Source of the DNA: Octopus vulgaris
Taxonomy: Eukaryota
Direction: 5' to 3'
DNA: 64,000 bases
Assembly: GCA_951406725.2 (NCBI GenBank)
Contig: OX597814.1
Coordinates: 126,356,001 to 126,420,000 of the forward strand
The notes beneath the pieces were generated by a model. The model saw only the letters and a program-made list of their open reading frames with translations, did no database searches and was not told the origin of the DNA. Within the stretch, counting starts at the first letter, position 1; every line of letters begins with the position of its first letter. Shown piece by piece: positions 550 through 23,773 of this stretch. Position numbers and translations under genes: made by a program.

Positions 550-1649
550 GTAAGTCAACTCAACTTCTGGGTTTAATCAATATTTTACAGTCTGAAGTTG
601 ACCATTTCTACTCCTAAAGATCTCTGAGAGACAAATTTTATTTATCCATGGAAGGCATAATCTTGCAATTAGAGAATCTTTGAATGTATATATATCAATC
701 CATTTAGGAACTGTAATGGACATTCACTATTTGTTTGTAATGTAACATGTTGCTTGGAAAGAAGTGTGACTGCCAAGGAATATTGCATTCAACTTGCTAT
801 CCAGTTTTGTTATTATGTCAATTATATAATGTAAAGGGCAGTTTAAAAACAATCTTCTGCTATTTTCTTTCTCACTAATTTTCTCATTCTTCCATCACTA
901 CTTATTAACAAGAAACGTTTCAGTTGTAGCTCTCTGTATTGTTGCTAGTTTAATTGTTTCCCATTTTGGATTATATTGCTTACTATTGTCTGTTTGATTG
1001 TTTAAACAGACCATTGTGAACTTGTAATGCTCACAGAAACATAATTTTCTATCTTATTTAACCATAAACATAATATCACTTAGGCAACAAAGTACCAATA
1101 TCAAATTGCCATCTGTGTGTTCCAGTTGAATACTTTCTTCACAAGTGGAGCTACTGGACACTGAAGATAACAAACAAAATAGAAAACAAATCTTTTATCT
1201 CTGTGTTTGGTAGATTCTTTTTCTGTTATCAATGTTTTTCATTGCAATCTTTCAAAAGTCTGAGAATAGCTTTCATTTGATCCAAAAGAATACTTTACAT
1301 TCTAGTTAAGCCTGAAGCAGTTAAAAGACAATTGTTTTGTGTGTATTTACACCTTGTGTTAATAATGTAAAATATATTATTTGTGAATTTTAACTTCACA
1401 TATTTTTCAACTTGTGTCTTTAATTTCTGTGGACATTTTATCACGTTCAGCTGCACTTCATCAGAACTAGAAACAAGATTATATCTATCTTGTTTTAGAA
1501 AGTGAACTTACATCTCCCTCTTCCTCTCAACATTCTAAACATTCATACTGGGTTGTTTTTTTTAGCTCAAAACTATATGAAATGATATCCAGCATTTATT
1601 TCCATATTTCTTGCCATATTATTTCCATATCTTCTATGATAAATAGTCT

Positions 1650-1968
1650 CAGTACACTCTGTAAAGTGGTTGGCAAATAAATATGTCAGGTCAGGGTCCA
1701 AAGGACTCTTTCATCTTGCCAAGAGCATGACACTATCTCTAGTACAGGTGCTATATAATAAAATGTACTCAGTGCACTCTATAAAGTGGTAGATGTTAGG
1801 AAGGTCATCCAGCCATAGAAACCATGCAAAAAAAAAAGAAACATAAGAGTGGGACAGGGTTTCTAACCCATCTAAGAGGGTAGTAATTCCAAATAAGAAC
1901 TAACTCGGACCATGACTACTTCTTCAACCCATTCCAGCATAGAAACTAAATGTAAAATGATGATGACA
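1650..1968 (+). mobile_element. RTE-type LINE 3' end fragment
   Basis: cagtacactctgtaaagtggttggc...ggtcatccagccatagaaacc...ccagcatagaaactaaatgtaaaa(tga)n. The same tail recurs many times in the window, including attached to RTE ORF sequence at 59810-60420. Confidence 0.7.
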
Positions 1969-2584
1969 ATTTCTCCCAATATTTCTTATATTTAACACTT
2001 ATATTCTAAACCTTTAGTCATAAAATGCAGCTGAAGTGGATAAATGGTTTACTTGCTGTGTTGCTCTAAAATGCTCACCAGGATCCTCTGTTTCTCTACA
2101 GACCTTGTTAATATGACCTAAGTACCACTTCCACTTCATATTGCAGTAACAGCTGTTATGAAGGACATTGACCAAACAATTCAAACTAATGTCACTCTAA
2201 GCTTCCAAGATTTAATCACATAAAATTAATGTTATTTCTCTTTGACATGTCACTGCTGCACACATATATTTTAGACTACATTAAAAAGAAAACCTCCAGA
2301 CTAATTGGCATGGAGTTCTTCCCTAGTACACTCCAGCCTTTGACCCAATACTAAGCAATCTTTGCTTCTCAAAGATAGCTGGTTCCAAGCTATCTTCTTC
2401 TATGCCTACATAGCTTACACATCCCTCATTCTTTGAGCATATTGTGTCTAACCATCTCTGGGCCCAGCACTAAACCCTAACCATAATTCTTCCTCCCCAG
2501 TACCAATACTCTGGAATTTTCCCCTTACTTGCAATTGTTCTTGCAGTTGTTCAAGAATATATTAATCTCAGCTGTCTTGAAGAC

Positions 2585-2720
2585 AAATTGGCAGAGTCAT
2601 TAGGGCATAAAACAAAATGCTTTGTTGTATTTGTTCCAGCTCTTTTCACTCTGAGTTCAAATCCCACCAAAGCCAACTTTACGTTTAACCTTTAAGAGCT
2701 CATAAAATAAAGTACCGGTC
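2585..2720 (+). mobile_element. tRNA-derived SINE family B (Meta-domain-like), partial
   Basis: ttggcagagtcattag...ctgagttcaaatcccaccaaagccaacttt...aaaataaagtacc, with a B-box-like gttcaaatcc. Related copies at about 19560, 31620, 47450, 56510 and 58490. Confidence 0.6.
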
Positions 2721-3192
2721 CAGGGTTGTGAATTGGTGTTACTGTTAGAACATTGGACAAGATACCTTGTGTTCCTAGATACCTTATGTTCCTAGACTTT
2801 ACATTCTGACTTCTTAATCCCTCACCTGCTTAGTTCTTACATATTTTTAGCAACATTCTCGCTTTTGTGCACATTCAGGCCCAAACCTCTGGTTTAAGGA
2901 TTATTTCCTTCTCTCCCACCATTCTTGCAGGCATTAAAAACAATATTTAGAAACAGTTAAGGGTACTGCTCTTTCTTCTTTGACAAAGCAATGAAAACAA
3001 AAAGACCTAAAGAATCTACAAAAGCTATGAGCATCACTCCATCCTCCAGACCAACCCATTTAAAAAAGTATATGTTATGTCCTTTATAAGTCATGGCATT
3101 CTTAACCTGTGTTATAGACTTATTTAGTTAGTAATACACCATTTTATGAAGAATGGAATAAGCAGAGCAAGAGCACACACAAAGATGGAAAG

Positions 3193-3237
3193 TGTCACTG
3201 AAGAGGTCACAGATGTGTGACGAAAGGTTTCCAGACA
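3193..3237 (+). ncRNA. Minimal type-I hammerhead-like motif (probably degenerate)
   Basis: tgtca-CTGAAGA-g-gtcaca[gatg]tgtgac-GAAA-ggtt-TC-cagaca. Core boxes are intact and stem II is a perfect 6 bp. Stem I (tgtc/gaca) is out of register. Confidence 0.55.
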
Positions 3238-4294
3238 ATGGACATGAGTTAGAATAAGAACAGTAATAAATAAATGAAAAACAAATATATAGTGCATGTG
3301 TTTATTTGGCAAAAAAAAAAATACAACAATATCTGTTTCAACACACGACTTCATATCAGGAATCTTGCAACACAAATTCATAAACGTAACCTCATTTCAC
3401 TTTACCTTATATTGTGGATTTATTTAACTCCCCTGAGATATTAGAGCAAAGGTTAACAGCTGAACATGTATCCTTCTTATCCTTGATTACTTAACTCTAC
3501 AGTATTAACATTTTCTTTTAAAATAATTTGACCCCCACCAAAAAGTTTCAACTGTTCTAATACAGTTATATTATCTGTGTCATGATTATATCCAATCTTC
3601 TGATAAAAGTATTTCTCAGCTTGTCTGAGAATGGTTAAACGAAGCTGATAGCAGCTTAAATTCTACTTAAATTGCTTTGATATATTGTGATATGTCTGAC
3701 TTGGAAAGGTTTGTTGACTACTAATTAATTATCTTCCATAATTATCTTCTAGTTATAATTGAAAACTAAATTGGATTTTCTATTAAACAAGTAAAATTTC
3801 TTCCTATCAGCCAGACATCAATGCTGAATGAGGGGAAAATTGCCTGAAATATCTCATGTTCTATTGCTTTTTAAATATCATCTTTACTGTTGTTTTCATT
3901 GACTTTCTCCTCATTCTCCTCCAACGTCATCATAGACATTATCATCATCATCATCATCTGTTAATATGTATCAAAGAAAAACAACTCTTATCAAATAATA
4001 ATTGCTTAGTTATGTCTCTTGCACTCTTCCTTCAGTACATTAACAACTACCTGCTGTTACTTCTAACAACAAAAAACTCCGTTACAGATAATATTTCTCT
4101 CCACCCCACTTCAACCTTTTACATACATGCAGCCTAGACATGTCACACCAGACATGCACTATCTGCACGATAAATGAAACCTGACAAATATCACCCAACA
4201 AGGATACCACTAAATCTCTATTTTTCTTGAAAAAAACTACAGATACAATCAGTACATATGTCAAAGAAATAAGACACTCTATATGGATATTTGA

Positions 4295-19770: not shown

Positions 19771-22461
19771 AACAGCAATGATCTGACTTGGAGCTGTCAA
19801 AATAGTACCAAAATCATAAAACTGTTTGGATGATCTAACACATTCTAAAATATTCATTAGCAATAGTTGTTCCATCTGCTAGAAATAGCTGTCAGATCTT
19901 TCTCAAATCTTAAGAAAGGAAGATCACCTTAGATAATGTAGTCCCATATCTAAAGTGAAAACAAATGATGTACTAATGGCAGGAACTTCTTTGATTATGT
20001 GACTGTTCAGTCAGGACTGACCTGGTCTCAACATCATCATTCAGTACTACTTAGTTCTTGTTTGACTTTGAGGACCTGTTTTGAAGCATATGACACATGA
20101 TGTGCCATAATTACCAGCACTTTAATAACACTTAGAACAGTTCTAATGCCTCTTAATAGCAATTACTGGCCAAACATCTAAAGAAATCTAAACTTTAGAT
20201 ATAAGCTATTTAACAATCTCATAATGACTGCAACTTTTGAAGTTTTCACTTCATTACGATTTCCAATCATTTCTTTATCATGATTCTCAATCATTTTTCA
20301 CTCAAAACAAATAATGAAGCTTAATTGTGAGATTGATTTTATTGCAATGATATCTAAGAAAATAGCATTTAAGCTTTTATAATTGCAAATTTTGAGGTCA
20401 AATTAGGCTCAATAATAAAATAAATAGACAGCAGAATTGTCATTAACATATGAGAAATATATTTTTGATCCTTTATCTGACTACCTTAACTTCTTAAAAT
20501 GATTTTTAATGGTTTTGCCTCCTTTGTTCCATAATATTATAGATTGTATAGATCTTCTGACTGAGATAGTTGTTTGAATTTTTAGACCAAGAGTATTTTC
20601 ACAATTCACTGCCTTTTCTAACATTAATCATTCAACTGTGTAGCTGATGTATTGCCTATTTTCAGCTAAGTAAAATAGGCAAATAATGTACTGTGCTTTC
20701 AAGCCTAAATTTCCTTTTGTGTCTGTATATGCATGTGTGTATATATTCCTGTGATAGAAGAAAACTATATAGCCTCCAACTATAGCTAAACCTATTTTCT
20801 CATTGCTTAATACGGTACATTGAGGCTGCAAAGTTTTTCTTTTAGATTCTTTATACATATTCCTCTTTGAGTTCATCGCTGATATTTCCTCAAATAGTTA
20901 TTTGATGGGCTTCATATTTTGTAGGAATTATTTTCTTTTTTATCTCTTTCTATATATGGAAACCTTTACCATATACAGAATCTTAACAATATTTCTGAAG
21001 AACTCATGGTTGCATGGTTAAGACGATCTCTTCGTGTTTATGGAGTTCCAGGTTTGATACCACTGCATGGAACCTTGGGAAAGTATCTTCTACCAGTGCT
21101 TTGAGTTGATCAATGCCTTGCAACTATAATTTCATGAATAGAACCTCTGTGTGTGTATGTGTGTGTGTAAATATATGTACATACATGCATACACACAAAT
21201 ATATGTGTGTGTCTGTATTTTTCACCAAAATATATTGAAGGAAGATGTGAATATCACCGAGAAAAACCAATAAACCGGTACTTTTAGACATAAATAACTT
21301 ACAGTATTTGTTCTGCCCGAGTTGCACAGGTTCTCCATTATCATACACACCATCAAAACTGCAGTGAACCAGTGACTGGTTCACTGGAAACCTGTAACCA
21401 GTGACACTATTGTTCACAAAATGAAAAGCAGCATCATTGAGAATTGCAGTAAAGGTTATACCTCACTACCATGTTGAAGCTGACATATACAGAAAAATAT
21501 TCATAAAGTAAAAGGAACACACATAGGCAATTATTTGGCCCTTCTGTTCATCTGAGTCTTAAATGAAGATAACAATTATCTCTACCATTTAACAATGGGT
21601 CACTGTCCTTAATAGGTTTTTCAGTAAATCACAAGTATATCATTCTTGTTGGTCGATACTAGGGTTGGCTCAAAAGCTATAAAATTCAAATGAAAGTTGA
21701 ACTGAGAAAATAAAAAAGAAATATGTAAAAATTATCCTTGTAGATAACCATTTTAGACCCTCAAGTTTATATTGTACCTAAGTCTACACACACACACACA
21801 TACACACTGTATATATGCATATATGCACACTATCTGTTCTTACATTTGCCTTCATTAAATGGCTATTATATATACACATACACACACATACAAATATTCA
21901 TGTGTGTGTGTGTGTTACTGTCTCCTTGTCTTGATTTTGTGTGATAGTTGTAAACTAGTGTGACTGTCATGCAAGCAGTGCTATCTATGAAACCATGTCT
22001 GATCATGGGAAGATATTATCTTACTTGAAAGTGGGGGTTGATGACAGGAAGGGCTTCCAGCTGTAGGAAATCCACTTATATAAATTTCATCTGACCCATA
22101 TGAATATGGGAAAGTGGAGGTTAAGACAGTGATGATGATATCTTTTGTCTTTTACTTGTTTCAGTCATTGGACTTAAGCCATACTGGGGCACCATCTTGA
22201 AGGGGTTTAGATGATTTTTTTAAAGCCTGGTACATATTCTCTTGGTCACTTATGCAGACCTACTAAGTTACGGGAAAATGTAAACAAACACAGTGATAGG
22301 AGAGCAACACAAAGATACACATGTGTATGTGTATATATATATAATGTACTGTTCAGTCAGTGATAGAAAATTCAACAAAAAAGTTCTCCATCTAGTGAGA
22401 GATAAATATTATTTATTTAAAGGGCACAATACATGTCTTTAAGTGCTACTAATAGTTTCAT

Positions 22462-22821
22462 CATCATCATCATCATCGTCGTTTAACGTCCGTTCTCCAT
22501 GCTAGCATGGGTTGGACAGTTCGACCGGGGATCTGGGAAGCCAGAAGGCTGCACCAGGCTCCAGTCTTATCTGGCAGTGTTTCTACAGCTGGATGCCCTT
22601 CCTAACGCCAACCACTCCGTGAGTGTAGTGGGTGCTTTTTACGTGCCACCTGCACAGGTGCCAGGCGAGGCTGGCAACGGCCACGGTCGGATTGGTGTAT
22701 TTTATGTGCCACCGGCACGGAAGCCAGACGAGGCGGTGCTGGCATCGGCCACGAGTCGGATGGTGCTTTTTACGTACCACCAGACCAGGGATCCTGGCTG
22801 GTTCAATTCAATTCAATTCGA
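22462..22821 (-). mobile_element. Young RTE 3' fragment inserted in the PLE hammerhead, TSD tttcat
   Basis: CpG-rich, little-decayed RTE tail with 3 internal repeat units. tttcat occurs at both 22456-22461 and 22822-22827. Confidence 0.85.
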
Positions 22822-23059
22822 TTTCATATGTTGAGAAATATCTCAAACATATTCATCAAGCACAAACCACTTATGATAACGAACTAAAAAAATTTAATAA
22901 GAGAAGAAATGCAAAAGAAACTGAGAAGGTAGAATATAGAAAACACAGATGATTAAAAAATGGAAAACAAAAACACAAAAACTAAAATGTAAAAAGTAAG
23001 GGATAAAAGAGTTATTCTCCTTAGACCTTAAATTATAAGGTTGGAGAGATATCAACAAG

Positions 23060-23692
23060 TTAATTAGGAATAGGCAGAATTTTACAATTCTTCAAAATAT
23101 ATTTATACATATGTTTTCATCTGCTAAAAATTTCAGACCTAGATTTCAGTAAAGAGTTAAGGAACTTAGATCTGAACAGGATCTGTGCTCTTTCACCTAA
23201 ACAAAGCCTACTTTTATTTGATCTATTAATATAAGGTATGGATTTCTCAATTATTTTCCACTTAATCACATGTGGTGTTTTGTTATCTTTCAAACTCCAT
23301 ACATAGCTAGCCAACTTAGTAGCTTTGCTTTTGTCCTTATGTCGGAAGGAAGCTATGCGATTGGCACAGTGATTTTTAAATTCTCCTTCACATAATCCGA
23401 AATAGGTCTTCTTATCTGTTGTATTATTATTTAGGGTTGCAGTAACTTCTGCCTCGTATATGATAGATTTAATCATACTTTGTTTGCCAAGTGGACAGAA
23501 TCCTGAATTGCAACAGTTACAACTGAATTTAGGTTCTTGGTATTGACTACATGTATTGATACTCTTCATATTGGGGCAACAACTATATGATAATTTCACA
23601 GAATGCTTATTAGATATTTTTCTGTATCTGGGAGTTGTTGGAAAGGGATTGTCTAGGAGAGACAGGAATATTAAGGGAAAAGGGAGGAGCAA
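23060..23692 (-). pseudogene. PLE linker plus GIY-YIG endonuclease frame with in-frame TGA at 23117-23119
   Basis: ORF 23117..23692 continues past TGA as KHMYKYILKNCKILPIPN* to 23060. Confidence 0.8.
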
Positions 23693-23773
23693 ACCAAAAT
23701 AATTTTATTTTTAAGCCACTAGCGTCCAACTCATGCTAGCATGGAAAGCGGACGTTAAACGATGATGATTTGC

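What the first reader, a model, noticed from the sequence alone, without database searches (positions are those of the whole stretch)
22443..22863. Hammerhead ribozyme split in its catalytic core by an RTE insertion
Seen: removing the RTE fragment and one TSD copy (tttcat) restores, on the minus strand, gtgc-TTGATGA-atatgtttgaga[tatt]tctcaacatat-GAAA-ctattag-TA-gcac. This gives stem I gtgc/gcac, a long stem II, near-palindromic stem III and a UA site, with C3U. It lies about 200 nt downstream of the PLE ORF, directly tying the HHR to the element and ordering the two insertions. Inference: the RTE (tga)n tail used microhomology with the atga of the core.
Basis: partly seen in the sequence, partly recalled or inferred. 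Interest (0 to 1): 0.7.

Follow-up and report, generated by a model that had tools for sequence, protein, structure and literature searches.

The report
Young LINE inside dead Penelope ribozyme
A recently copied jumping gene sits in the middle of a hammerhead-type RNA motif (predicted to be self-cutting) at the end of an older, already broken jumping gene; the split is real, but it is most likely an ordinary nested insertion at an AT-rich spot, not targeting of ribozymes.

Summary
The two halves (22443-22461, 22822-22863, minus strand) are one type I hammerhead motif: 27 of 29 other copies show them contiguous, and a 25-mer across the empty site occurs 99 times in the genome. The host is a decayed, 5'-truncated Penelope-like element (PLE) with Hydra-clade motifs; Hydra PLEs with 3' hammerheads, including an octopus family, are published (PMC8557442). 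The 366-bp insert is the 3' UTR end of a very young single-ORF LINE (RTE-like; 39 sisters 99-100% identical). Corrections: U3 is decay (93 of 111 copies have C3); ATGA is the end of stem II plus G12-A13; the 5' junction also has a microhomology (GAAA), so the 6-bp duplication is likely but not independently proven. Targeting is not supported: foreign DNA follows the hammerhead anchor in 3 of 78 other copies against 1 of 29 at a control site. Four other copies are hit or broken in the same 12 bp, but the element's other CATATG site is hit as often. Cleavage untested. Earlier scan notes reported Hydra-PLE hammerhead ends on other DNA.

The parts
22332..22343 (.). (TA)n tract at the 3' end of the PLE (typical Hydra-clade insertion site)
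   Evidence: Sequence; many sister copies end in (TA)n; PMC8557442 section 11
22344..22442 (-). 3'-terminal segment of the PLE downstream of the hammerhead
   Evidence: 92% identical to the family profile consensus over 22336-22461
22443..22461 (-). 3' half of the hammerhead: duplicated ATGAAA (GAAA box), palindromic stem III, UA cleavage site (predicted cut between 22447 and 22446), stem I 3' strand
   Evidence: contiguous with the 5' half in 27 of 29 other loci
22456..22461 (-). 3' copy of the 6-bp duplication; its first 4 bases (ATGA) are indistinguishable from the LINE tail
22462..22821 (-). 5'-truncated 3' UTR end of a very young single-ORF LINE (RTE-like), with (GAT)n tail at about 22462-22481 and one to two extra GAATT units at its 5' end
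   Evidence: 39 other full matches 99-100% identical; sisters run upstream into a 1043-aa APE + RT + zinc-finger ORF
22822..22827 (-). 5' copy of the 6-bp duplication; its last 4 bases (GAAA) match the LINE's internal GAAATC repeat at the truncation point
22822..22863 (-). 5' half of the hammerhead: stem I 5' strand, core box with U3 (family C3), 11-bp stem II with one bulge, GAAA
   Evidence: hairpin -10.1 kcal/mol, z -3.36
22864..23059 (-). T-rich 3' UTR of the PLE (196 nt)
   Evidence: Aligns to family copies at 79-85%
23060..23706 (-). 5'-truncated, decayed C-terminal endonuclease region of a Hydra-like PLE ORF (CxCX5C linker present; CxxC reads SRLC; premature TGA at 23117-23119 in the CxH motif)
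   Evidence: 40% identical over 192 aa to the intact 710-aa ORF in L073, E 4.8e-36; 151 matches in the genome; homology ends at about 23706
23723..23769 (+). Second, separate 47-nt stub of the same LINE family's 3' end, just outside the truncated 5' end of the PLE
   Evidence: 92.5% over 40 nt to the LINE 3' end, sequence

Best explanation
This is a nested insertion: a young LINE, likely of the RTE clade, landed in the hammerhead motif of an older, already decayed copy of a Hydra-type Penelope-like element, most likely by ordinary target-primed reverse transcription at an ATAT site. Shown: the motif is the family's standard 3' hammerhead-shaped element (about 1,500 copies, range 720-4,100), the PLE copy is about 10% diverged with a broken ORF and a C3U change, and the insert is a 99.6%-identical 5'-truncated 3' UTR with 4-nt microhomologies at both ends. 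Inferred: the LINE endonuclease nicked at the start of ATGAAA; the freed DNA end paired with the (GAU)n RNA tail through AT(GA) and primed reverse transcription; copying stopped in the UTR's GAAATC/GAATT repeat, where the cDNA end paired with the target's GAAA, leaving a 6-bp duplication. Inferred: in the living element the motif self-cleaves the PLE transcript after UA, probably as a dimer through the palindromic stem III; this split copy would be inactive, because the sequence now following the first GAAA cannot form stem III with the distant half, and it has no likely function.
For: Contiguity in 27 of 29 loci and 99 exact empty-site 25-mers. Complete canonical core in 59 of 111 copies. Stem I pair varies as U-A 64 / C-G 20 against C-A 11 / U-G 9 (Fisher p 1.9e-7, but probably one subfamily event). 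Related subfamilies L073/L074 and L143 keep the GANGA box, GAAA, a stem II of wholly different sequence, ACT-initial stem III and a UH site. Same architecture (4-bp palindromic stem III around one base) in the published Hydra-1_oBim hammerhead row. Stem III self-duplex -4.9 kcal/mol. Ages: PLE copy 88.9% and 92.1% to family consensus, LINE end 99.6% to L189. 16 of 26 sister insertions continue with AT after the tail and many sit in (TA)n. Tail/target overlap in RTE, CR1 and L2 is described in PMC6007223 section 18; a TTT tract lies at -9 to -11 from the duplication start, as in that paper's signature (weak in AT-rich DNA). No excess of foreign DNA at the hammerhead: 3 of 78 against 1 of 29, Fisher p 1.0; LINE tails joined within the motif genome-wide: 1 in each orientation, one of them this window, against roughly 0.3-0.6 expected each (range 0.13-1.7).
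Against: Cleavage was not tested, and the minimum-energy monomer folds of two intact copies pair the core box with stem III instead of forming a hammerhead. Four other copies are hit or broken within the same 12 bp (L015, L018, L198, L199), so a mild local preference is possible and the control set is small (29). The 6-bp duplication could equally be written as a blunt insertion with chance matches. RTE clade was not confirmed by a tree with named references. Pfam gives no GIY-YIG or RT hit for the window ORF or for L073, so the PLE call rests on motifs and on by-eye likeness to Hydra-1_Obim.
Confidence: 0.88

Rival explanations
1. The DNA form of the hammerhead (11-bp inverted repeat of stem II next to the stem III palindrome) is a structure-dependent hot spot for several retroelement endonucleases, so PLE ribozymes are knocked out more often than their sequence alone predicts.
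For: Five copies carry foreign DNA at consensus positions 518-530: the window (LINE), L018 (21-nt LINE stub, opposite orientation), L015 (tRNA-type SINE, 10-bp duplication), L199 (about 420-bp SINE-like element), L198 (break into another element, no resumption in 2.9 kb). The 3 unbiased events all fall in 8 of the 24 positions read.
Against: 3 of 78 against 1 of 29 at a non-ribozyme control. In copies picked by protein, 0 of 64 spanning the motif have an insertion in it, whereas the only other CATATG site (ORF end, positions 239-252) has 4 of 81 (p 0.13). Three further protein-picked copies (L085, L088, L146) break off inside the motif into unidentified DNA and were not counted; about ten break off in the 190-nt UTR. 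LINE-tail counts match background.
Confidence: 0.07
2. The insertion is blunt (no true duplication) at AT/GA, and the apparent TTTCAT duplication is made of the LINE's own tail and its own internal GAAA.
For: ATGA is tail-like and GAAA is LINE-internal, so the observed sequence is the same under both readings; outside microsatellites the sister insertions show shared words of only 2-6 nt.
Against: Under a blunt join the matches of LINE-internal GAAA to the downstream target and of the tail to the upstream AT are coincidences; under a staggered cut with annealing they are expected. This rival changes only the junction detail.
Confidence: 0.2
3. The motif is not a ribozyme but a chance hairpin or a SECIS-like element in the PLE 3' UTR.
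For: AUGA, 11-bp stem, GA resembles a SECIS helix (recalled pattern); no Rfam hit; monomer folds are not hammerhead-shaped.
Against: No AA in the apical loop; the family has TGC, not TGA, at the cysteine where this copy has a stop; all hammerhead boxes are kept across subfamilies with different stems and match the published Hydra motif.
Confidence: 0.03

Closest known systems
Hydra-clade Penelope-like elements, incl. Hydra-1_Obim (Craig et al. 2021, PMC8557442; section 11, passages and supplement rows read)
   Same: C-terminal endonuclease with CxCX5C linker, CxxC and CxH; (TA)n insertion; hammerhead about 100-200 nt from the 3' end with a 4-bp palindromic stem III around one base; relative L073 has RWK and DKT.
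   Different: Different family: other stem sequences, 4-bp stem I, 11-bp stem II, UA site; old and decayed (median 84% to consensus). Not compared by alignment with the published sequence, only by eye.
Minimal/variant type I hammerheads of metazoan PLEs (Cervera and de la Pena 2014, PMC4209133; parts 1-2 of 4 of the text read)
   Same: Short stem I (4-5 bp), long stem II, bulge in stem II, small palindromic stem III, mostly single dispersed copies from truncated PLEs, predicted dimer activity.
   Different: No unpaired base between A9 and stem II and no G10.1-C11.1 pair (A-U here); this copy has U3 with G8, not the U3-A8 covariant.
RTE-clade LINEs with microsatellite tails (Nishiyama and Ohshima 2018, PMC6007223, abstract, passages, section 18; octopus RTE-2_OV, Petrosino et al. 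2022, PMC9115989, passages)
   Same: Single ORF with AP endonuclease, RT and a zinc finger; short-repeat tail; tail overlapping the target at the 3' junction; T tract about 10 nt upstream; recent activity.
   Different: 3' microhomology here is 4 nt (1-2 nt typical for animals in that paper); strong bias to (TA)n; identity with RTE-2_OV could not be checked (sequence not found in 4 of 8 supplementary files searched; PMC13282606 says it was not reported).

Membership tests
Type I hammerhead ribozyme | C3-U4-G5-A6-N7-G8-A9 box | tested here: met
   Family: CUGAAGA 43, CUGAUGA 28, CUGACGA 2 of 111. This copy deviates (U3 with G8).
Type I hammerhead ribozyme | G12-A13-A14 and A15.1-U16.1 pair, H17 cleavage site | tested here: met
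   GAAA in 95 of 111, UA in 95 of 111, A-U pair in 98 of 111.
Type I hammerhead ribozyme | Three stems around the core, with covariation | tested here: met
   Stem II hairpin z -3.0 to -3.4 (one copy -1.7); U-A/C-G swap in stem I; different stems with the same boxes in L073/L074 and L143. Stem III stable only as a predicted dimer.
Type I hammerhead ribozyme | Contiguous core in this copy | tested here: not met
   Split by 366 bp: this copy is a remnant, the family motif is intact elsewhere.
Type I hammerhead ribozyme | Site-specific self-cleavage | not testable with these tools
   Needs in vitro assay.
Hydra-clade PLE | C-terminal endonuclease after RT in one ORF | tested here: met
   Window fragment aligns to residues 511-702 of the 710-aa ORF of L073, which has RT-like motifs upstream. 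Pfam silent on both; homolog P0011 has a weak GIY-YIG hit, E 0.0018, below cut-off.
Hydra-clade PLE | CxCX5C linker; CxxC and CxH around the conserved E and N; no CCHH | tested here: met
   CxCX5C in the window ORF; CRLC and CxH in the family consensus, decayed in this copy.
Hydra-clade PLE | RWK and DKT motifs in the RT region | tested here: inconclusive
   Present in the related family L073; this copy is 5'-truncated and no full-length copy of its own family was recovered.
Hydra-clade PLE | (TA)n insertion and 3' hammerhead | tested here: met
Hydra-clade PLE | Placement in the Hydra clade on an RT tree | not tested
   No named references were available as stored sequences.
RTE-clade LINE | Single ORF with AP endonuclease and RT | tested here: met
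   1043-aa frame in L189: Exo_endo_phos E 1.8e-9, RVT_1 E 1.9e-31, PHD-like finger E 8e-4; no other frame of 250 aa upstream in the locus.
RTE-clade LINE | Short tandem-repeat 3' tail, 5' truncation, junction microhomology | tested here: met
   (GAT)n tail and variable 5' ends in 27 copies.
RTE-clade LINE | RT phylogeny within RTE | tested here: inconclusive
   Homolog search returned almost only unnamed proteins; PDB hits are L1 and R2; no tree built. The RTE label rests on architecture and recall.

The most novel reading that the evidence does not exclude
The stem II / GAAA / stem III junction of PLE hammerheads is, as DNA, a shared landing spot for unrelated retroelements (an RTE-like LINE twice, two SINEs, a further element), because an ATAT step sits at the foot of an extrudable hairpin; other transposons would then preferentially cut the ribozymes of resident PLEs.
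Probability: 0.07. Interest if true: 0.45.

Novelty: new member of a known kind. Interest (0 to 1): 0.15.

Why it matters
Little on its own: it is one dead copy among roughly 1,500. It is a clean teaching case of nested insertion with microhomology at both ends, and it points to an uncurated Hydra-type PLE family with a long-stem hammerhead and to a LINE family that is still copying itself (intact 1043-aa ORF in L189), whose fresh insertions could serve as population markers. It would matter more only if hammerhead DNA proved a structure-dependent hot spot, which the counts here do not support.

Tried and rejected
Rfam scan of the window: no hit. Pfam on the window ORF: only TFIIE_alpha, E 0.075; on L073: none. 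SECIS/selenoprotein reading (prompted by the TGA at a cysteine position): rejected, family has TGC and the loop lacks AA. Naiad assignment: rejected, endonuclease is C-terminal. Recurrent LINE insertion at the identical site: only the window; L187, L193, L195, L196 are chance pattern hits and L197 lies just downstream of the motif. Generic hammerhead descriptor scan: crashed once, then too strict; replaced, whose weak hits in L142, L144 and the second hits in L143 and L074 were treated as chance. Alignment used wrong coordinates for two rows and was not used. Long-stem subfamilies (L094, L097, L113, L147, L152, L154) were printed but not folded. Sequencing runs: three raw-read runs had no cover outside the LINE; in four contig runs nothing covers the 5' junction at 22815-22819 although two hold the flank 22841-22900; a hole proves nothing, so presence/absence polymorphism is unresolved. 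Literature: searches (Penelope/hammerhead/nested insertion/octopus) listed no paper on LINE insertion into PLE hammerheads; only listings were seen for most, and subscription journals are not covered. Ichiyanagi and Okada 2008 was seen only as cited in PMC6007223. PMC3884650: three passages read (NUH rule, C3-G8 pair). PMC8557442 supplement: matching rows only. PMC9115989 supplementary files 5-8 were not searched and might hold the RTE-2_OV sequence.

Full report
What is there. On the minus strand the window has, in order, a truncated ORF (23706-23060), a 196-nt T-rich UTR, the 5' half of a hammerhead-shaped motif (22863-22822), a 360-nt insert, the 3' half of the motif (22461-22443), about 100 nt of element end and a (TA)n tract. 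The word TTTCAT occurs at both junctions (22456, 22822) and is the longest word they share.

The halves belong together. With only the upstream half as query, 27 of the 29 other loci fetched continue directly into the downstream half; one has a SINE there and one about 7 extra bases. An exact 25-mer across the empty site has 99 genomic matches (reversed control 0). Since 6 of 92 sampled copies carry that exact word, the family has roughly 1,500 copies (720-4,100).

Is it a hammerhead? In 111 copies aligned through the motif, position 3 is C in 93 and T in 15; GAAA is intact in 95, the UA site in 95, and 59 have a complete canonical core. So the family motif is canonical and U3 is decay in this copy; it keeps G8 and is not the U3-A8 covariant of PMC4209133. 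Stem I shows a U-A to C-G swap (64 and 20, against 11 and 9 mixed), probably one subfamily event. Better evidence is that related subfamilies (L073/L074, L143) keep the boxes around stems of unrelated sequence, and that the published Hydra-1_oBim hammerhead has the same 4-bp palindromic stem III around one base. Monomer folds of two intact copies do not show the hammerhead; stem III pairs as a self-duplex at -4.9 kcal/mol, in line with the dimer model and low in vitro activity reported for PLE motifs. Activity was not tested. Rfam does not detect the split motif.

The host element. Pfam does not name the ORF, but it has 151 scored matches in the genome and is 40% identical to the C-terminal part of an intact 710-aa ORF in L073. 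L073 has RWK, DKT, CxCX5C, CxxC and CxH; the window family has CxCX5C, CRLC and CxH, and ends in (TA)n. These are the features given for the Hydra clade, in which canonical hammerheads were readily detected and an octopus family is listed (PMC8557442). The window copy is dead: 5'-truncated, CxxC changed, a premature stop, about 89-92% identical to the family consensus. That the genome is octopus-like is my inference from recalled repeats and by-eye likeness of L073 to Hydra-1_Obim.

The insert. All 39 other full-length matches scored are 99-100% identical. Longer sisters run upstream into a 1043-aa frame with AP endonuclease, RT and a PHD-like finger, so the insert is the 5'-truncated 3' UTR of a young LINE, not a SINE. 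Architecture fits RTE and recently active RTE families are reported in octopus (PMC9115989, PMC13282606; passages), but I built no tree. The age gap (99.6% against about 90%) confirms the order independently of the duplication.

Junctions. The tail is (GAT)n. After it, 16 of 26 sisters continue with AT and 2 with GA; many sit in (TA)n. Here the target reads ATAT then GAAA, giving a 4-nt overlap (ATGA) made of the end of stem II and G12-A13. At the 5' end the LINE was truncated in its own GAAATC repeat, so GAAA overlaps too. The sequence is thus compatible with a 6-bp duplication plus annealing at both ends (preferred, as it explains both matches) or with a blunt join. Tail/target overlap for RTE is described in PMC6007223, as is a T tract about 10 nt upstream, present here at -9 to -11.

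Is the ribozyme targeted? Four tests. (a) LINE tail joined to the right half at this exact site: only the window. (b) Gapped patterns for LINE tails anywhere in or near the motif: one hit per orientation inside it (L018 and the window), against about 0.3-0.6 expected from background density. (c) All copies with an exact stem II anchor, next 24 bases read: foreign DNA in 3 of 78 other copies; control anchor in the UTR: 1 of 29; p 1.0. (d) Copies picked by protein: 0 of 64 with an insertion in the motif (3 more break off inside it and were left out), 4 of 81 at the ORF-end CATATG site. Against this: five copies in all are hit or broken within 12 bp of the motif (window, L015, L018, L198, L199), by at least three different element types. 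The simplest reading is a preference for ATAT/CATATG steps, which occur at both busy sites; a two- to three-fold local excess cannot be excluded with these numbers.

Verdict. Real, well spotted and ordinary: a known kind of ribozyme in a known clade of PLE, interrupted after its death by a very abundant young LINE through a known mechanism. Earlier scan notes describe Hydra-PLE hammerhead ends in this and another genome; I had reached that assignment before reading them (note) and do not count them as support.

Noticed in passing
L015 (minus strand), L199, L018/L192, L198: Other copies hit in the same 12 bp of the hammerhead: a 334-bp tRNA-type SINE with a 10-bp duplication, an about 420-bp SINE-like element at the ATAT step, a 21-nt LINE 3' stub in opposite orientation with loss of about 4 target bases, and a break into another coding element.
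   Followed up: yes
PLE consensus positions 239-252 (L085, L093, L146, L150): The other CATATG site of the element, near the ORF end, carries insertions in 4 of 81 protein-picked copies; one (L093) is this LINE family.
   Followed up: partly
L073:1730-3859 (+), hammerhead at L073:4058-4123; L074: A younger Hydra-type family with an intact 710-aa ORF and tandem copies; its hammerhead has C at position 4 (CCGAAGA) in all three copies seen, as does L143.
   Followed up: partly
L189:2431-5559 (minus): Intact 1043-aa LINE ORF, 99% identical to sisters; likely still active. Its 3' UTR is built from tandem duplications with GAAATC/GAATT repeats, where this copy and L048 are truncated.
   Followed up: partly
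L094, L097, L113, L147, L152, L154: Older subfamilies with about 27-36 extra bases in stem II between the same core boxes.
   Followed up: no
L164, L171, L179, L183, L184 and others: Many short PLE copies start just upstream of the hammerhead and are fused to an inverted copy of the same 3' end (fold-back pairs).
   Followed up: no
window 23723-23769 and about ten further places (e.g. 15835, 36313, 51997, 59827, 60916): 3' ends of the same LINE family at 76-92% identity: roughly one per 5-6 kb, so several waves of activity.
   Followed up: partly
L075 minus strand, first 1.5 kb: A second PLE type with a CCHH-like endonuclease and 495-aa open frame lies next to two Hydra-type copies and a DNA-transposase fragment.
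   Followed up: no
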